Source: a virus
Direction: 5' to 3' (one strand)
Length of the DNA: 64,000 nucleotides
Virus record (IMG/VR): IMGVR_UViG_3300045391_000362
Positions within the stretch are counted from its first letter, which is position 1; each line of letters opens with the position of its first letter. The notes under the pieces were generated by a model, which saw only the letters and a list, made by a program, of their open reading frames with translations, was not told the origin of the DNA and did not search any database. The position numbers and the translations under genes were made by a program. This document shows, piece after piece, positions 33,011 through 60,528 of the stretch.

Positions 33011-33523
33011 ATGAAAACTAAAACCTGTGCGTCATGTAAGCATGACCAACCAATAGCTATGTTCGCGCGCAAGGAATACACAACCAAAAAGGGTTATGTC
33101 AATTCCTATGTGCTTCGTGTCTGCGATATGTGCCGAGATTCGGATCATTATGGGGAGAAATATTGCTCTAAGTGTGGAGGATTAAAGCCATTAGACCAGT
33201 ATTTCCAGCGTAAGGATGCCCCTAACCAGAAATATCAGGCAGCGTGTAAGAGCTGTGTCAGTGTCTACGGCAAAGAATACCGAGCTAAGAAACTATACGG
33301 CATCACTTATGACGAAATTCAGAGTATCAAGGCAGAGCAGGAAGACTCCTGTACCATCTGCGGAGAGATTACACAACTCGTGGTAGACCATAACCACACT
33401 ACTGGACAAGTTAGAGCTTTGCTGTGTGATCTATGTAATAGAGGTTTGGGGTATTTTAGAGACAATCCTGAACTCCTTATGAGAGCTAGTAACTATTTGC
33501 TAGAGAAAGGCTACGCAGGGTGA
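33011..33523 (+). CDS. Endonuclease VII-type (HNH-like) nuclease
   Basis: VVDHNHTTGQVRALLCDLCNRGLGYF matches the recombination endonuclease VII motif; Cys-rich N-terminus. Confidence 0.75.
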   Translation: MKTKTCASCKHDQPIAMFARKEYTTKKGYVNSYVLRVCDMCRDSDHYGEKYCSKCGGLKPLDQYFQRKDAPNQKYQAACKSCVSVYGKEYRAKKLYGITYDEIQSIKAEQEDSCTICGEITQLVVDHNHTTGQVRALLCDLCNRGLGYFRDNPELLMRASNYLLEKGYAG

Positions 33524-35016
33524 AACTCTACTTCCAAGGAGCACATCTGCCCACCTATCGGAACCTTATTAAGGAAACCGGGGTGGGCAGTAGCTCCCTG
33601 TCCTATTTAGGACTACGTAATCGTACTAACTTTGGTAAACCGTGGTTGGTGTCCAAGTATTTCCCAGAGGGACATTCCCTTTTTGTGGATTCAGGATGTC
33701 AGACCTTGAATAACGCCAAAGAGCAGAAGTACACAAATGAAGAATTAAAGGAAATAGCGCAGCATTACTATTCATGGATAGAACAGAACATCGATAACAT
33801 CGAGATCTATTCAGAGTTCGATGCTCTGCAATTGGGCAAGTCATTTATTGAAAGCCATCGTGAATCTGCACGAGAGCTGATGTTCGACAAGTTCCTGCCT
33901 ATTTGGAGAGAAGATGACGGACTAGATGAGCTTTACCGTTTAGGGGAGAAGTTCGGCCGTGTGGGAGTCTCACAGACCCATCTAAAGGGCAGAGATCTTA
34001 TCCCTACGCTCAACCGAATGGCTGATGCTGGAATAGAACTCCATGGTTTGGCTATGACAAAGCAAGATATAATGCAAGCGGTTAGATGGACATCGGTCTC
34101 ATCAACCTCTTGGGTTTCTCCTCAGAAATACGGAGCCACATTCGTCTGGTCCCACAACCAATTGAAGAGCTATTCCAAGGAACAGAAGGAACAGGCCAGA
34201 CGAAAGGAAAGATTCGTCATAGAGGCTGCCGGATTCGACGTAGAAAAGATACTAGGAGAAGATCCTAAGGAACTTCTACGTCTTTCATTGTGGTCCTGGT
34301 CACAATTTGTTGACTCAATTAATGATAAAAAAGCAAGAGGAGTAACTACATCCATGATTTCGCATGGTGACGACTTTACGGAAAACTATGATGACGCAGT
34401 TGGTGGTGTTATAGAGCCAGTGCGGAACAGAGTATCAACTCCGGTGCCGAGAGATCCGGACCGAAAAGTTGTAATACCGCTCATAAATCTAGAGGAGAAT
34501 CTAGAAAAGAGACGTAATGCCCGGACTGGTGAATTGGAGACTATTTCTTCACCTAAGCTGAAGAGTCGCAGCGATTCTATGCGTCTTTGTGATACTTGTT
34601 TTCTAGCTGCAAAATGCCCCATGTTTGAAGAAAACTCAACTTGCGCGTATGATATCCCCATCACTATCCGCACCAAGGAACAAGCGCAGGCACTTATGGA
34701 TACCATTGTGGAGATTCAGACGCAACGTGTTCTATTCATGAAAATGGCTGAGGATGCGGAAGGTGGCCACGCTGATCCTATTCTTTCCAACGAATTGGAT
34801 CGCCTGGTAAAGATGATGAAGACCAAGAGTGACATGGAACAGGAGGGCTTTAGCCTTACTGTTACTGCTAAGCAGAACGGTCAGCCTGGAATCGTTGAAT
34901 CTATCTTCGGACCCATGGGTGACATGAGTAGATTACGAGAACTTGAGGCTCCTCAAGATCCTCAAAATATTGCAAGCCAATTAGGCATAATTGATGCCGA
35001 AGTATACGAAAACTAG
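33520..35016 (+). CDS. hypothetical protein (weak TGT/DpdA-like features)
   Basis: 498 aa, GTG start; LFVDSGCQ, HGLAMT and SVSSTSW loosely recall transglycosylase TIM-barrel motifs; C-terminal CDTC-x5-C-x9-C; no Walker A, so not a terminase. Confidence 0.6.
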   Translation: MKLYFQGAHLPTYRNLIKETGVGSSSLSYLGLRNRTNFGKPWLVSKYFPEGHSLFVDSGCQTLNNAKEQKYTNEELKEIAQHYYSWIEQNIDNIEIYSEFDALQLGKSFIESHRESARELMFDKFLPIWREDDGLDELYRLGEKFGRVGVSQTHLKGRDLIPTLNRMADAGIELHGLAMTKQDIMQAVRWTSVSSTSWVSPQKYGATFVWSHNQLKSYSKEQKEQARRKERFVIEAAGFDVEKILGEDPKELLRLSLWSWSQFVDSINDKKARGVTTSMISHGDDFTENYDDAVGGVIEPVRNRVSTPVPRDPDRKVVIPLINLEENLEKRRNARTGELETISSPKLKSRSDSMRLCDTCFLAAKCPMFEENSTCAYDIPITIRTKEQAQALMDTIVEIQTQRVLFMKMAEDAEGGHADPILSNELDRLVKMMKTKSDMEQEGFSLTVTAKQNGQPGIVESIFGPMGDMSRLRELEAPQDPQNIASQLGIIDAEVYEN

Positions 35017-57910: not shown

Positions 57911-58726
57911 TTGGCTATTTACACTCGACACATTCCTGAGGTTGCCTCCGAGACTATCGGTGGACGCCTAGGAAGACACGTTAATCATGATTCCCGCTCA
58001 TTGGACTATAAGTTCGATGGATCTGGATTCACTGCGACATCTATTCGTCACACTCGCTACATTCCTGTATTAGACCAGGGTGACCTAGGATCTTGTACTG
58101 GAAATGCGGCGACAGGAAATCTAGGAACTGGTGACTTCTTCGCTACCATTCCTACTGCGGTAACTCTTAACGAGGATGAGGCTGTAAAGCTCTACAGCTC
58201 TGCTACAGCCCTTGATGGCTATGCAGGCGAGTATCCTCCCACCGACACTGGTTCAGACGGTCTGAGCGTCGCCAAGGCAGCCCAGAAGGCTGGTTTTATC
58301 TCTGGTTACCAGCACATCACGTCTCTTGCGGACGCTGTTGCCGCTCTCCAGCTAGGACCAATCATTACGGGTGTCAACTGGTATTCATCATTTGACAATC
58401 CAAGCAAGACTGGTAAGGTATCTATTACCAAGAGCGCTTACGTCCGTGGAGGACATGAGTTCGTTCTTGATGAGGTAGACGTTACCAACAAGCTTATCGG
58501 AGCTACAAACTCCTGGGGAGATTCCTGGGGACTTAAGGGACGCTTCTACTTCTCCTTTGCTGACTATGAGCGCTTGCTTGCAGAGCAGGGAGATGCTACA
58601 GTGTTCGTGAAGTTGAGCACTCCGACTCCTCCAACACCGCCTGGTCCTACACCTAGTGTTGACACGGATGTACTTGCTGCGTATACTGCACTAAAGGCAT
58701 GGGCCATTAAGAACAACGTAGCCTAG
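57911..58726 (+). CDS. papain-like cysteine peptidase (C1 family)
   Basis: TTG start; DQGDLGSCTGNA (Q...C), GGHEFVL (H), NSWGDSWGLKGRFYF (N-S-W-G-x2-W-G) in papain order; Pro/Thr linker at the C-terminus. Confidence 0.7.
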   Translation: MAIYTRHIPEVASETIGGRLGRHVNHDSRSLDYKFDGSGFTATSIRHTRYIPVLDQGDLGSCTGNAATGNLGTGDFFATIPTAVTLNEDEAVKLYSSATALDGYAGEYPPTDTGSDGLSVAKAAQKAGFISGYQHITSLADAVAALQLGPIITGVNWYSSFDNPSKTGKVSITKSAYVRGGHEFVLDEVDVTNKLIGATNSWGDSWGLKGRFYFSFADYERLLAEQGDATVFVKLSTPTPPTPPGPTPSVDTDVLAAYTALKAWAIKNNVA

Positions 58727-59086: not shown

Positions 59087-59255
59087 CAATGGAGGGGTTG
59101 ATCACCTCTCCTGGATATGGCGGAATATCCTTCTTACGGGGGTAACGCACATCGCTGGTTTAGCAACCTGGGGTAGCACCCAATGTGATGGTATGAGACA
59201 ACGGAGTACGTAAGGATCTCATTGCTGGTAAACTTAAGTCCAGCTATCCACTTAT

Positions 59256-59328
59256 GCTGCTGTAGCCCAAGGGTAGAGGCACTAGTCTTAGGAACTAGCC
59301 AGTGTCAGTTCGAATCTGACCAGCAGTA
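59256..59328 (+). tRNA. tRNA-Leu (TAG) with short variable loop
   Basis: D loop CAAGGGTAGA, perfect anticodon stem CTAGT/ACTAG, loop CTTAGGA, 5-nt variable loop, A73. Confidence 0.65.
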
Positions 59329-59329
59329 C

Positions 59330-59358
59330 TTGACACACCATGTACACCGTAGTACGCT
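59330..59358 (+). promoter_or_regulatory. possible promoter
   Basis: TTGACA - 17 nt - TACGCT upstream of the small membrane gene. Confidence 0.4.
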
Positions 59359-59383
59359 GTTAACAACAGCCGAAAGGAGCAAC

Positions 59384-59599
59384 ATGGACATCGTGTTCGC
59401 AGTTCTGGGATTCCTCGGACCACTTGGTCTGGTGGGACTCTGGATCTTTATTATGATCAACAAGCAGGGTTGGAAGATTGTCCAGATTATAGCGGGTGGC
59501 ATTTTTGCACTCCTTCTGGTAAGCTCCTTCCCACAGCTTCCCCAAGCAGTACATGATGGTGTAGTCAGCGTGACTAAGGCACTGTCAAATAGTAAGTAA
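59384..59599 (+). CDS. small membrane protein
   Basis: ATG at 59384 after GAAAGGAG; two TM spans; the upstream part of the track ORF overlaps tRNA-Leu. Confidence 0.5.
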   Translation: MDIVFAVLGFLGPLGLVGLWIFIMINKQGWKIVQIIAGGIFALLLVSSFPQLPQAVHDGVVSVTKALSNSK

Positions 59600-59614: not shown

Positions 59615-59685
59615 ATGGCGTTAGTGTAGTGGTAACACGTCGGTCTCCAAAACCGTTATCCAGGGTTCGAATCCTTGACGCCGTG
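59615..59685 (+). tRNA. tRNA-Trp (CCA)
   Basis: Acceptor ATGGCGT/ACGCCGT, D arm GTGT-AGTGGTA-ACAC, anticodon loop CTCCAAA, T arm CAGGG-TTCGAAT-CCTTG. Confidence 0.7.
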
Positions 59686-59731
59686 CGCTCTATATTGTAA
59701 GATACTCACAGTCCCTTCCGAGGGACCTTAT

Positions 59732-59803
59732 TCCCCGTTAGCTCAATGGCAGAGCAGTGAGCTGTTAACTCAAAGGTTGTTGGTTCGAATCCAGCACGGG
59801 GAG
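59732..59803 (+). tRNA. tRNA-Asn (GTT)
   Basis: Acceptor TCCCCGT/ACGGGGA, anticodon loop CTGTTAA, T arm GTTGG-TTCGAAT-CCAGC. Confidence 0.75.
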
Positions 59804-59806
59804 CTT

Positions 59807-59933
59807 GTGTCGATGCGAAGAACCGAGTTACTTCGGAAATAGATGGTTCGATCCCACCCGGCGCTGTGAAAGGCGCTGAACGGCTACCCCTGATCGGGTA
59901 GCTACATACACTTGGTTCGTTCTTTCTAGACAC
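59807..59933 (+). ncRNA. Y-RNA/YrlA-like structured RNA, unit A
   Basis: GTGTC-GAT-GCGA-AGA-ACCGAG...CTTGGT-TCGT-TCTTTCTA-GACAC closing stem; inside a T-arm-like GATGG-TTCGATC-CCACC and two hairpins. Confidence 0.6.
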
Positions 59934-59941
59934 ATTAGATT

Positions 59942-60093
59942 TGACAGCGATGCGTAGATAAGAGATACTTCATCGCAAAGGGAACCACGGGTCGGAGGTT
60001 CGAATCCTCCCCTATCGACTTCTTCGGTAGGTAGCTCAGCGGCGAGAGCAGTGGTCAAAAGAAAAAGACTTTTATCGATTTTTCTAGCTGTCA
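59942..60093 (+). ncRNA. Y-RNA/YrlA-like structured RNA, unit B (contains a circularly permuted tRNA cloverleaf)
   Basis: Outer helix TGACAGC/GCTGTCA, ATAAGAG/CTTTTAT, loop GAT vs TTTTTCTA; 59984-60055 folds as anticodon stem, variable loop, T arm, capped acceptor and D arm. Confidence 0.7.
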
Positions 60094-60106
60094 CGAGTTT
60101 TACAAC

Positions 60107-60215
60107 GTACCGATGCGAAGACCAGGGTTACTTCTAACCAACTAATATAGAGTAGGTCGGTTCGATTCCGCCTTCATGGACTGGTGTCCTTTCCTTGGTC
60201 GCTATTTCTAGGTAC
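60107..60215 (+). ncRNA. Y-RNA/YrlA-like structured RNA, unit C
   Basis: GTACC-GAT-GCGA-AGA-CCAGGG...CCTTGG-TCGC-TATTTCTA-GGTAC; internal GTCGG-TTCGATT-CCGCC arm and GGAC-TGGT-GTCC hairpin. Confidence 0.6.
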
Positions 60216-60233
60216 CTATAATTTCATAAGCTT

Positions 60234-60308
60234 TACCCGATGCGTAGGCCACAGTTACTTCTTCAATTATGGTGAATACAAAGCACTGTAGCCGTTTTTT
60301 CTAGGGTA
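60234..60308 (+). ncRNA. Y-RNA-like mini unit C' (no T arm)
   Basis: TACCC-GAT-GCGTA-GGCCACAGT...ACTGTAGCC-G-TTTTTCTA-GGGTA; keeps TTACTTC but has only about 30 nt inside. Confidence 0.45.
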
Positions 60309-60320
60309 TATATTTTTAGC

Positions 60321-60447
60321 AATACCGATGCGAAGGCAACGGGGTTACTTCTTTCTGATTAAAAGGACGAGTGGGTTCGAATCCCACGCCCGTACTTGCG
60401 GGTGCATGGCGCTAGTAAAACACCTCAAGCCACTATTTCTAGGTATT
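60321..60447 (+). ncRNA. Y-RNA/YrlA-like structured RNA, unit D
   Basis: AATACC-GAT-GCGAAGG...TATTTCTA-GGTATT outer helix; internal GTGGG-TTCGAAT-CCCAC arm and GCCCG/CGGGT hairpin; inner stem register unclear. Confidence 0.5.
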
Positions 60448-60458
60448 CAATTCTTATA

Positions 60459-60490
60459 CCCACCAGATCTACACCCCTGGTGGGTTTTTT
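60459..60490 (+). terminator. intrinsic terminator closing the ncRNA array
   Basis: 8-bp stem CCCACCAG/CTGGTGGG followed by TTTTTT. Confidence 0.75.
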
Positions 60491-60528
60491 CTTCACTAAT
60501 GACGTACCACACTAACAAGGAGGCAGTA

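What the first reader, a model, noticed from the sequence alone, without database searches (positions are those of the whole stretch)
59807..60490. Tandem array of five covariation-supported structured RNAs (Y-RNA/YrlA-like) directly upstream of a Ro60/Rsr gene, inside a phage tRNA cluster
Five back-to-back units lie between tRNA-Asn (ends 59803) and the Rsr start (60529): 59807-59933, 59942-60093, 60107-60215, 60234-60308 and 60321-60447. They are separated only by 8-18 nt AT-rich spacers and closed by one intrinsic terminator (60459-60490). All five share one skeleton. The outer helix differs in sequence but stays complementary (GTGTC/GACAC, TGACAGC/GCTGTCA, GTACC/GGTAC, TACCC/GGGTA, AATACC/GGTATT). 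Inside it is a conserved asymmetric internal loop (5' GAT opposite 3' TNTTTCTA), then GCGW opposite TCGN, an AGR bulge, and a second covarying helix (ACCGAG/CTTGGT, CCAGGG/CCTTGG, ATAAGAG/CTTTTAT), followed by (G/A)TTACTTC. Four of the five carry a GGTTCGAWYCC T-arm inside. Compensatory changes in two helices across copies argue for selection on RNA structure rather than protein. The six-frame ORFs here (59706-59933, 59828-60094, and the 5' extension of 60328-62115) are artefacts. A long closing stem plus a tRNA-like head next to a Ro60 orthologue is the layout described for bacterial YrlA-type Y RNAs. The GCGAAG...GTTACTTC block also reminds me of the CCGAAGG...GUUAUC segment of vertebrate Y RNAs, but that is from memory and needs checking. 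To my knowledge, a multi-copy array of graded variants, apparently co-transcribed with tRNAs in a phage, has not been described.
Basis: partly seen in the sequence, partly recalled or inferred. Interest (0 to 1): 0.88.

Follow-up and report, generated by a model that had tools for sequence, protein, structure and literature searches.

The report
Five phage Y RNAs beside Ro60
A Streptomyces-type phage carries five back-to-back small structured RNAs that all share one stem, sit directly in front of the phage's Ro60 gene and look like bacterial Y RNAs; this is a real but expanded example of a known RNA-protein partnership.

Summary
Window 59806-60447 (+) holds five tandem units with one shared skeleton. 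A closing helix differs in sequence between units but stays paired. It is followed by GAU, GCG(A/U)AG, a second covarying helix and (U/A)UACUUC, and on the 3' side by UNUUUCUA. A hairpin plus U-tract follows at 60458-60490, then a TROVE+vWA Ro60/Rsr gene at 60529.

The array is syntenic in about 15 BRock-like Streptomyces phage genomes, with 3-5 units each. Compensatory changes are abundant. In unit 2, 16 of 39 pairs show double changes (0/500 shuffles). In the shared stem, covariation is 0.61 against 0.22 for shuffles.

Unit 2 is a YrlA-type permuted tRNA-like Y RNA. It scores only 32 bits on Rfam YrlA (threshold 69). Units 1, 3 and 5 keep a T-arm, and unit 4 is a minimal hairpin.

RNA-only pattern searches of viral contigs returned 65 loci. 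All 61 testable ones have Ro60 just downstream on the same strand.

Y RNAs next to Ro60 are already described in mycobacteriophages and Thermus phage phiLo, and as polycistronic units with a tRNA in Deinococcus. So this is a new, unannotated and expanded member of a known kind. Five units is the top of the range seen. RNA expression and Ro binding are inferred, not shown.

The parts
59675..59703 (+). sigma-70-like promoter candidate (TTGACG-17-TAAGAT) between tRNA-Trp and tRNA-Asn; possible start of the tRNA-Asn + array transcript
   Evidence: Consensus scan, 9 of 12 matches. This is a consensus match only, not evidence of function.
59732..59804 (+). tRNA-Asn(GTT). It ends 2-3 nt before unit 1 and has no encoded CCA.
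   Evidence: ARAGORN. Rfam tRNA 64.8 bits. The same tRNA precedes the array in relatives.
59806..59934 (+). Unit 1: shared stem module plus an imperfect T-arm and two private hairpins
   Evidence: Model R1 scores 59.5 bits, E 2e-15. Folding z = -3.4. Orthologues are present in GiJojo, pSt2308, Alone3, LuckySocke and L028; 10 of 34 pairs show double changes.
59942..60093 (+). Unit 2: YrlA-type Y RNA (shared stem module plus a permuted tRNA-like head)
   Evidence: Rfam YrlA 32.4 bits, E 5e-5, below the gathering score of 69. Across 8 phages, 98.1% of cells are paired and 16 of 39 pairs show double changes, reached by 0 of 500 shuffles.
59984..60055 (+). tRNA-like head of unit 2. Elements: anticodon-like stem 59984-59988/60051-60055, variable loop GGGUC, T arm 59994-60010, closed acceptor-like stem 60011-60031 (8 bp), U8-A9, D arm 60034-60049.
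   Evidence: RNAalifold helices 4-7. U8, A14, G15:C48, G18-G19 and the TUCGAAU loop were read from the sequence.
60107..60215 (+). Unit 3: shared stem module plus an imperfect T-arm and a small hairpin. The T-arm is absent in the GiJojo, BRock and Alone3 orthologues.
   Evidence: R1 scores 61.2 bits. Alignment A4 has 7 of 18 pairs with double changes.
60234..60308 (+). Unit 4: minimal 75-nt stem-loop with no tRNA-like part (YrlB/Yrn2-like)
   Evidence: R1 scores 60.4 bits. Across 9 orthologues, 3 of 17 pairs show double changes; one is a G-C to C-G swap between the window and its 98%-identical twin L028.
60321..60447 (+). Unit 5: shared stem module plus a perfect T-arm, a hairpin and a degenerate D-arm remnant. 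Orthologues in BRock, GiJojo, Alone3 and L006 still have T, acceptor-like and D arms.
   Evidence: R1 scores 51.3 bits. Alignment A5 has 9 of 20 pairs with double changes. The BRock unit 5 scores 32.4 bits on Rfam YrlA.
60458..60490 (+). Intrinsic-terminator-like hairpin (9 bp, 10-nt loop) plus U run, closing the array
   Evidence: -15.6 kcal/mol, z = -4.6. Relatives have a hairpin at the same position with a different but complementary stem sequence, plus a U run.
60502..60510 (+). Conserved leader element ACGTACCAC between the hairpin and the RBS; function unknown
   Evidence: Present once, 19-27 nt upstream of the rsr ATG, in L001-L007 and L028.
60517..60523 (+). Ribosome-binding site AAGGAGG of rsr
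   Evidence: Read from the sequence. AGGAGG is conserved in relatives.
60529..62115 (+). Ro60/Rsr orthologue (528 aa, TROVE + vWA)
   Evidence: Pfam TROVE 3e-17 and VWA_2. PDB: phage phiLo Ro60 9KOP/9L5Y at 2e-24 and D. radiodurans Rsr 2NVO at 2e-4. It is 65-70% identical to 'Ro-like RNA binding protein' of Streptomyces phages.

Best explanation
The interval encodes an array of five paralogous Y-RNA-like small RNAs that partner the phage Ro60/Rsr protein encoded just downstream.

Each unit is modular. The base-paired 5' and 3' ends form a shared stem: closing helix, GAU//UNUUUCUA internal loop, GCG(A/U)AG, second helix, (U/A)UAC. This corresponds to the Ro60-binding module of known Y RNAs, with GCGAAG matching the published GNCGAAN0-1G motif and UUAC matching YUAY.

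The heads differ between units:
- Unit 2 has a full YrlA-type circularly permuted tRNA mimic.
- Units 1, 3 and 5 have a T-arm plus private hairpins.
- Unit 4 has no head.

Proposed working, all inferred:
1. The array is transcribed on the + strand together with tRNA-Asn, and perhaps with upstream tRNAs.
2. Transcription mostly stops at the hairpin at 60458-60490. Read-through feeds rsr.
3. The units are released by tRNA 3' processing and by cuts in the AU-rich spacers.
4. Rsr binds each unit's stem.
5. The different heads tether or gate Rsr towards different partners. The host PNPase, as in the RYPER complex, is the precedent.
6. The result is a change in structured-RNA decay and quality control during infection.

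Shown here: the sequence architecture, strand, conservation, covariation, and strict linkage to Ro60 genes. Inferred: transcription, processing, Rsr binding and the downstream function.
For: Shared motif: it occurs 5 times here with 0 expected.

Covariation in the shared stem, on a position-anchored alignment of 38 distinct units:
- The outer helix is 92.5% paired, and 5 of 6 pairs show double changes.
- The covariation score is 0.608 against 0.216 for shuffles (0/500) and 0.10-0.27 when partners are slid.
- Cognate outer helices average 5.9 bp against 1.7 bp for non-cognate combinations.

Unit 2: 98.1% paired, 16 of 39 pairs with double changes.

Strand: many G-U pairs in helix 2 fit only the + strand.

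Specificity of covariance model R1:
- Units 1, 3, 4 and 5 score 51-61 bits.
- It finds nothing in 1.35 Mb of unrelated DNA.
- It finds every unit in the related phages.

Rfam YrlA gives weak hits (30-44 bits) at the unit 2 slot of every relative and in distant loci.

Linkage to Ro60: RNA-only patterns retrieved 65 viral-contig loci. Of these, 61 have a Ro60 homologue about 200 nt downstream on the same strand, and the other 4 are cut off at the locus end.

The protein is a Ro60.

Precedents:
- Y RNAs are modular, with the Ro60 site in the terminal stem (bioRxiv 10.1101/312249).
- YrlA/YrlB lie upstream of rsr and come from one precursor; Deinococcus Yrn2, tRNAAsp and Yrn1 are polycistronic; YrlA occurs in 22 phages (PMC4201824).
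- Phage phiLo Ro60 binds two upstream Yrl RNAs and host PNPase in vitro (PMC12135203).
Against: - No Rfam family reaches its gathering score in the interval. The metazoan Y_RNA model gives nothing at E<=10.
- The published motif GNCGAAN0-1G is not met exactly. The first position is U, and units 2 and 4 have CGUA instead of CGAA.
- Folding energies of units 3-5 are no better than shuffles.
- There are no expression, processing or binding data.
- The hairpin with a U run lies between the array and rsr, and rsr has no obvious promoter of its own in the window, so the transcript structure is uncertain.
- I could not compare the stem with the experimentally validated M. smegmatis YrlA/YrlB sequences.
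Confidence: 0.8

Rival explanations
1. The units are cis-acting structures of a long rsr 5' leader, not discrete small RNAs. They would be repeated Rsr-binding sites through which the protein autoregulates its own mRNA, or which stabilise it.
For: The array is directly upstream of rsr on the same strand. No convincing rsr-specific promoter lies between the hairpin and the RBS in the window. A conserved leader element, ACGTACCAC, follows the array.
Against: A conserved hairpin with a U run separates the array from rsr in all relatives. L027 has an extra ORF between the array and rsr. In GiJojo-type phages a TTGACA-N17-TATTCT promoter-like site lies after the array. Each unit closes on itself with its own helix and AU-rich spacers, as expected for excised RNAs. 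In M. smegmatis the upstream Y RNAs are processed from the precursor and bound as small RNAs (PMC4201824).
Confidence: 0.08
2. The units are tRNA-derived relics or tRNA-mimic decoys that act without Ro60. They might titrate host tRNA-modifying or tRNA-cleaving enzymes, and lie next to rsr only because both sit in the tRNA cluster.
For: Four of the five units have T-arms. Unit 2 is a near-complete permuted tRNA. ARAGORN and annotators call part of unit 5 a tRNA in GiJojo, Alone3 and LuckySocke. Some related loci enclose a tRNA body in normal order.
Against: The most conserved part is the non-tRNA stem, and unit 4 has no tRNA-like part at all. The stem module was found only next to Ro60 genes, in 61 of 61 testable loci, including high-GC contigs without tRNA clusters. 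The heads are the least conserved part.
Confidence: 0.07
3. The units are repeated DNA-level or transcription-level elements with no function as RNAs in their own right. Candidates are palindromic repeats, a miniature mobile element, stacked terminators or promoter repeats.
For: Each unit is flanked by an inverted repeat. TTGACAGC plus GATACT in unit 2 scores 10 of 12 as a promoter.
Against: The inverted repeats differ between units and covary within each orthologous unit, which copies of one mobile element would not do. G-U pairs show strand-specific RNA pairing. The position is fixed and syntenic in about 15 genomes. No copies exist elsewhere in the window.
Confidence: 0.02
4. The interval is protein-coding: the minus-strand ORFs 59706-59933 and 59828-60094, or a longer Rsr that starts at 60328.
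For: ORFs of 75, 88 and 595 aa exist mechanically.
Against: The ORFs overlap tRNA-Asn and the T-arms. No relative annotates a CDS here. Rsr homologues align from residue 1 at MAKFNKPV, which has a strong RBS. Substitutions follow base-pairing, not codon positions.
Confidence: 0.01

Closest known systems
YrlA (Rfam RF02553), the bacterial tRNA-like Y RNA (Chen et al. 2013/2014; PMC4201824; structure PDB 6CU1, bioRxiv 10.1101/312249)
   Same: Unit 2 has the defining layout. A terminal stem formed by the 5' and 3' ends carries a CGAA-type motif. The YUAY element follows. The head is a circularly permuted tRNA mimic in the order variable loop, T arm, closed acceptor-like stem, D arm, set on an anticodon-like stem. 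The gene lies next to Ro60 on the same strand. The nucleotides for the tRNA tertiary contacts are present.
   Different: It scores 32 bits against a gathering score of 69. The stem has an extra closing helix and a conserved GAU//UNUUUCUA internal loop. The motif is UGCG(A/U)AG rather than GNCGAAN0-1G. The host is a low-GC Streptomyces-type phage. It is one of five paralogues.
YrlB / Yrn2-type second Y RNAs (S. Typhimurium YrlB, M. smegmatis YrlB, D. radiodurans Yrn2 and RNAs a, b, d; PMC4201824)
   Same: These are additional Ro60-bound RNAs encoded beside YrlA/Yrn1 and processed from a common precursor. Some have only a T-arm and some are long hairpins. Deinococcus Yrn2 is co-transcribed with a tRNA. 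Units 1, 3, 4 and 5 fit this description.
   Different: There are four such RNAs here instead of one or two. All share a strictly conserved stem module with the YrlA-type unit. No binding data exist.
Thermus phage phiLo Yrl1/Yrl2 with phage Ro60 (PMC12135203; PDB 9KOP, 9L5Y)
   Same: A phage-encoded Ro60, which is the best PDB match to this protein at E 2e-24, has several Y-RNA-like genes directly upstream. A CGAA motif sits in an internal loop flanked by a 5'-3' stem. In vitro, binding and a complex with host PNPase give the mechanistic precedent.
   Different: phiLo has two RNAs, not five. I saw no recognisable sequence similarity in the phiLo upstream region. No tRNA-like heads or tRNA cluster are described there.
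Metazoan Y RNAs (Rfam RF00019)
   Same: The overall logic is the same: terminal stem, bulge or internal loop, upper stem, then a loop. The 5' strand looks similar at motif level (hY1 CCGAAGG...GAGUUAUC against GCGAAG...GAGUUACUUC). The hY1 sequence is from my memory.
   Different: The covariance model gives no match at E<=10. Metazoan Y RNAs have no tRNA-like head.
Phage tRNA genes
   Same: The units lie in a tRNA cluster. They carry T-arms, and one carries a D-arm. Part of unit 5 is annotated as tRNA-Arg or tRNA-Ser in three relatives.
   Different: No unit in the window is called by ARAGORN or by Rfam tRNA. The arm order is permuted. There is no anticodon loop or free acceptor end.

Membership tests
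Bacterial/phage Y RNA (functional class: Ro60-bound ncRNA) | Encoded next to a Ro60/Rsr gene on the same strand | tested here: met
   The array ends 81 nt before the rsr ATG. The stem module is followed by Ro60 in 61 of 61 testable viral loci.
Bacterial/phage Y RNA (functional class: Ro60-bound ncRNA) | Long stem formed by pairing of the 5' and 3' ends, with a conserved 5'-strand motif for Ro60 | tested here: met
   The closing helix and helix 2 covary. CGAUGCGNAG is invariant on the 5' strand in 38 distinct units.
Bacterial/phage Y RNA (functional class: Ro60-bound ncRNA) | Physically bound by Ro60/Rsr and stabilised by it | not testable with these tools
   This needs RIP, EMSA or northern blots with and without rsr.
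Bacterial/phage Y RNA (functional class: Ro60-bound ncRNA) | Exists as a discrete small RNA | not testable with these tools
   No transcriptome data are available. It is inferred from the self-closing units, the AU-rich spacers and the terminator.
YrlA (Rfam RF02553) | Reaches the Rfam gathering score (69 bits) | tested here: not met
   Unit 2 scores 32.4 bits. Orthologues and distant loci score 30-44 bits. There are no gathering-level hits in the window or in 20 loci.
YrlA (Rfam RF02553) | tRNA-like head in the order T arm, closed acceptor-like stem, D arm, with conserved T- and D-loop nucleotides | tested here: met
   Met for unit 2 only. Helices 4-7 have 12 pairs with double changes. The alignment to the YrlA consensus covers the T, AS and D arms. 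Units 1, 3 and 5 have a T-arm only, and unit 4 has none.
YrlA (Rfam RF02553) | GNCGAAN0-1G motif near the 5' end (PMC4201824) | tested here: inconclusive
   The motif here is UGCGAAG in units 1, 3 and 5 and UGCGUAG in units 2 and 4. It is close to the published motif but not exact.
YrlA (Rfam RF02553) | Conserved YUAY after the stem | tested here: met
   UUAC is present in units 1, 3, 4 and 5. Unit 2 has AUAC, which departs at the first position.
Metazoan Y RNA (Rfam RF00019) | Match to the family covariance model | tested here: not met
   There is no RF00019 hit at E<=10 in 59690-60560.
tRNA | Cloverleaf with an anticodon arm and a free acceptor stem, detected by ARAGORN or Rfam tRNA | tested here: not met
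   No call falls inside 59805-60528 in the window. Relatives' unit 5 scores only 29.5-30.8 bits and the call covers part of the unit.

The most novel reading that the evidence does not exclude
The five RNAs are a deliberately diversified adaptor set. One phage Ro60 is loaded through an identical stem onto five different heads. Each head would recruit a different host enzyme, such as PNPase, RNase P/Z, tRNA-modifying or repair enzymes. Alternatively each head would act as a decoy for a different tRNA-targeting defence nuclease. This would tie the Ro60 system functionally to the surrounding phage tRNA cluster as a counter-defence and tRNA quality-control module. The T-arm-only heads would then be a new class of effector module, not decayed YrlA copies.
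Probability: 0.15. Interest if true: 0.78.

Novelty: new member of a known kind. Interest (0 to 1): 0.47.

Why it matters
Y RNAs and Ro60 are conserved from bacteria to humans, where Ro60 is a lupus and Sjogren autoantigen. What the variable "effector" half of a Y RNA does is still poorly understood.

These culturable Streptomyces phages (BRock, GiJojo, Alone3, LuckySocke, pSt2308) offer a natural experiment. They carry three to five paralogues with one invariant Ro-binding stem and very different heads, evolving quickly by loss, gain and decay of tRNA-like parts.

The finding also has practical value:
- The RNAs are unannotated in all five GenBank records.
- They are mis-annotated as tRNA-Arg or tRNA-Ser in three of those records.
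- The Rfam YrlA model misses them at its threshold.
- The stem module found here is a simple, highly specific marker. It retrieved 65 viral contigs, and Ro60 followed it in every testable case. It could seed a new or extended RNA family.

Tried and rejected
- Rfam at gathering thresholds on the window and on 20 loci gave no Y-RNA family hit. Only permissive scans showed YrlA, at 30-44 bits.
One example was a protein repeat in L064. Only L079 proved related.
- Model R1 missed unit 2 in the window, scoring it 13.6 bits as a partial match. The 152-nt unit probably exceeds the model's hit length.
- R1 gave one weak hit at 34566-34612. It lies inside a 498-aa ORF and I judged it chance.
- I tried to reach the mycobacteriophage Ro loci described by Chen et al. 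by tblastn with two Ro queries. No Mycobacterium phage appeared among the organisms and records shown.
- The reviews PMC10870794 and PMC6047535 and the supplements of PMC4201824 are not held. I therefore could not compare the stem with the M. smegmatis YrlA/YrlB sequences.
- The phiLo upstream region shows no recognisable similarity to the module.
- I considered whether TTGACAGC...GATACT in unit 2 is an internal promoter. I set this aside because the spacing is imposed by the RNA structure and L027 has GTTACT at that place.
Full report
**1. What is in the sequence**

Window 55.2-63.3 kb is a phage tRNA cluster with 21 tRNAs, all on the + strand. tRNA-Asn ends at 59804. An ORF starts at 60529 (MAKFNKPV...). 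Between them lie five units: 59806-59934, 59942-60093, 60107-60215, 60234-60308 and 60321-60447.

Each unit has the same plan:
- It begins with a short helix strand followed by CGAUGCG(A/U)AG.
- A 7-9 nt helix strand and (U/A)UACUUC come next.
- It ends with the complementary helix strand, usually CG(C/U), then NNUUUCUA and the complement of the first strand.

The composite 5' motif occurs five times in the 64 kb window, all here, with none expected by chance. T-arm consensus GGTTCGAWYCC lies in units 1, 2, 3 and 5. The spacers are 7-18 nt and AT-rich. A 9-bp hairpin with a U run follows at 60458-60490 (z = -4.6).

The downstream protein has TROVE and vWA domains. Its best solved relatives are the Ro60 of Thermus phage phiLo (E 2e-24) and D. 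radiodurans Rsr (E 2e-4).

Two corrections apply:
- The small GCG:CGY helix is not universal.
- Single-sequence folding energies are unremarkable for units 3-5.

**2. Origin and relatives**

The closest database relatives are Streptomyces phages of the BRock (Borockvirus) type: GiJojo, pSt2308, BRock, Alone3 and LuckySocke. Their Ro proteins are 65-70% identical to this one, and DNA similarity is patchy. All have the same gene order: tRNA-Trp, tRNA-Asn, an unannotated gap of about 600-700 nt, a Ro-like protein, then tRNA-Ala, Lys, Lys.

IMG/VR holds further relatives, including a 98%-identical twin (L008/L028). Reading the gaps shows the same array in every one of about 15 genomes:
- Five units: window, L028, GiJojo, pSt2308, Alone3, LuckySocke, L279.
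- Four units: BRock, L006, L007, L281, L283.
- Three units: L027, L277. L284 has three by the strict definition plus a divergent YrlA-like unit.

No record annotates these RNAs. In GiJojo, Alone3 and LuckySocke the 5' two-thirds of unit 5 is annotated as tRNA-Arg(cct) or tRNA-Ser(gct). ARAGORN reproduces that call in GiJojo. Rfam tRNA gives only 29.5-30.8 bits at the same place in Alone3 (L004) and in L006, and no hit there in GiJojo at E<=0.05.

**3. Evidence for RNA structure**

*Orthologous alignments*
- Unit 2 (8 phages): 39 consensus pairs, 98.1% of cells paired, 16 pairs with changes on both sides. None of 500 shuffles reaches this, and slid controls give 0-3 such pairs.
- Unit 5: 9 of 20 pairs.
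- Unit 3: 7 of 18 pairs.
- Unit 1: 10 of 34 pairs.
- Unit 4: 3 of 17 pairs. One is a G-C to C-G swap between the window and its 98% twin.

*Shared skeleton across unit types*
I joined the 5' part and the last 30 nt plus flanks of 38 distinct units, anchored only on the invariant GAU and CUA. The alignment is therefore not fitted to any structure.
- The closing helix is 92.5% paired, with 4-5 pair types at each of five positions.
- The covariation score is 0.608, against 0.216 for shuffles (0/500) and 0.10-0.27 for slid partners.
- Cognate 5'/3' flanks give 5.9 contiguous pairs. Flanks taken from different unit types give 1.7.
- Frequent G-U pairs in helix 2 fix the strand as +.

**4. Specificity and linkage to Ro60**

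A covariance model of the shared stem (R1) gave these results:
- It scores units 1, 3, 4 and 5 at 51-61 bits in the window. It gives only one weak hit elsewhere, inside an ORF.
- It finds every unit in the related phages.
- It finds nothing at E<0.01 in 1.35 Mb of unrelated DNA.
- It also finds weaker matches about 200 nt upstream of Ro in distant, high-GC viral contigs (Ro about 48% identical).

In those distant contigs the module reads G-G-U-GCGNAG ... YUACUUC ... UUGAUCUC, and two to four units precede Ro.

Two strict RNA-only patterns were then run on IMG/VR. They returned 9 low-GC contigs, all BRock-like, and 56 high-GC contigs. A local tblastn shows a Ro60 homologue on the same strand, typically about 200 nt downstream, in 61 of these 65 loci. 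The other four are cut off at the locus end. The stem module is thus an obligate neighbour of Ro60.

I counted units with the 5' motif in 41 loci: 2 loci had one unit, 27 had two, 9 had three, 2 had four and 1 had five. Five is therefore the upper end of the range and is confined to the BRock-like phages.

**5. What the units are**

*Unit 2* has the YrlA layout described by Chen et al. (PMC4201824) and solved by Wang et al. (bioRxiv 10.1101/312249). Its elements are:
- an anticodon-like stem (59984-59988/60051-60055)
- a variable loop GGGUC
- a T arm (59994-60010)
- an acceptor-like stem closed by a loop (60011-60031, 8 bp)
- U8-A9
- a D arm (60034-60049)

The nucleotides for the tRNA tertiary contacts are in place, as read from the sequence: U8:A14, G15:C48, G18-G19 with the T loop. 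Rfam YrlA aligns the T, AS and D arms but not the stem, and gives 32.4 bits against a gathering score of 69. The same sub-threshold hit recurs at this slot in every relative. It also recurs in BRock unit 5 and in the distant loci, at 30-44 bits.

*Units 1, 3 and 5* keep a T-arm plus private hairpins. The unit 5 orthologues in BRock, GiJojo, Alone3 and L006 still have acceptor-like and D arms, so the window's unit 5 is a decayed YrlA-type head.

*Unit 4* is a bare 75-nt stem-loop. It resembles the "long hairpin" second Y RNAs (YrlB, Yrn2) of PMC4201824.

The invariant part of all units is the stem, and the variable part is the head. This matches the published modular plan of Y RNAs: a Ro60-binding terminal stem whose 5' strand is conserved, and an effector-binding module.

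**6. Mechanism**

The best-supported reading is an operon-like unit. A promoter candidate lies at 59675-59703 or further upstream at 58659-58687. tRNA-Asn follows, then five Y-RNA-like genes, then a leaky intrinsic terminator, then rsr.

tRNA-Asn has no encoded CCA and ends 2-3 nt before unit 1. tRNA 3' processing would therefore create the 5' end of unit 1. The AU-rich spacers are plausible endonuclease sites. All of this is inference.

By analogy with three published systems, Rsr would bind the stems and the heads would tether or gate it:
- D. radiodurans and S. Typhimurium RYPER
- M. smegmatis YrlA/YrlB (PMC4201824)
- phage phiLo Ro60-Yrl-PNPase (PMC12135203)

None of the steps from transcription onward is shown here.

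**7. Rival explanations**

- A purely cis-acting rsr leader remains possible. It is disfavoured by the conserved hairpin with a U run, by the self-closing units, and by an inserted ORF in L027.
- Ro-independent tRNA relics or decoys are disfavoured. The non-tRNA stem is the conserved part, and it tracks Ro60 genes even outside tRNA clusters.
- DNA repeats and coding ORFs are excluded by covariation, G-U pairs and synteny.

**8. Comparison with what is known, and novelty**

The following are all published:
- Y RNAs beside Ro60
- several per locus
- processing from one precursor
- co-transcription with a tRNA
- presence in phages: 22 in PMC4201824, two RNAs in phiLo in PMC12135203, and a suspected trio in Listeria phage CKA15 in PMC12282133

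Full-text searches found nothing on such arrays in Streptomyces phages.

I therefore class this as a new member of a known kind, with three distinctive points:
- It is the largest array seen here, at five units.
- It has a stem module that Rfam's YrlA model does not capture.
- Its heads turn over quickly.

Interest is moderate. It is not surprising to a Ro60/Y RNA specialist. It is a useful, tractable system and a clear annotation gap.

Noticed in passing
window 60502-60510; L001-L007 and L028 at about -20 to -27 from the rsr ATG: The sequence ACGTACCAC is conserved between the post-array hairpin and the rsr RBS in all BRock-like relatives. Its function is unknown; it could be a leader or regulatory site. 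In GiJojo, pSt2308 and Alone3 the hairpin region also forms a TTGACA-N17-TATTCT promoter-like site.
   Followed up: partly
window 59091-59254 (+): A manA RNA motif (Rfam RF01745) scores 57.1 bits, above its gathering score of 55.2. It lies between tRNA-Leu(taa) and tRNA-Leu(tag). Sub-threshold copies lie between the two tRNA-Lys genes of BRock and Alone3.
   Followed up: no
L001 2269-2343 (GiJojo gene 29); L004/L005 2274-2347 (Alone3/LuckySocke gene 36): The annotated tRNA-Arg(cct) and tRNA-Ser(gct) cover the 5' stem strand through the T-arm of unit 5. They are probably mis-annotated parts of a Y-RNA-like gene. ARAGORN reproduces the call in GiJojo, and Rfam tRNA scores only about 30 bits at the equivalent place in Alone3 and L006.
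   Followed up: yes
L079 1999-2061; L025 1240-1305: In two distant Ro loci a Y-type stem encloses a tRNA body in the normal order D arm, anticodon arm, T arm (Rfam tRNA 47 and 40 bits, model positions 5-66 and 4-67). This is not the permuted YrlA order and is a different way of building a tRNA-like Y RNA head.
   Followed up: no
L007 848-940; L027 790-850; L006 876-898: The slot of unit 1 is occupied by other elements in some relatives. L007 has a tRNA-like sequence (38 bits) with an extended stem GGTAAGTCG/CGACTTACC. L027 has a hairpin that contains CGAA. L006 has a short GC hairpin. The array gains and loses members.
   Followed up: no
window 59941-59969: TTGACAGC in the closing helix of unit 2 and GATACT 17 nt later score 10 of 12 as a sigma-70-type promoter. 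The closing helix of unit 2 is nearly invariant across phages, while those of the other units vary. This is probably imposed by the RNA, but an internal promoter is not excluded.
   Followed up: partly
window 34566-34612 (+): Model R1 gives a weak match (18.7 bits) with the closing helix and the CGAU...UUUUCUAG loop only. It lies inside a 498-aa ORF (33520-35016) and is judged chance.
   Followed up: yes
window 59222-59599: The mechanical 125-aa ORF overlaps tRNA-Leu(tag). The real gene is probably the 3' portion of about 70 aa, which encodes a small membrane protein. It matches the 'membrane protein' annotated at the same place in GiJojo and pSt2308.
   Followed up: no
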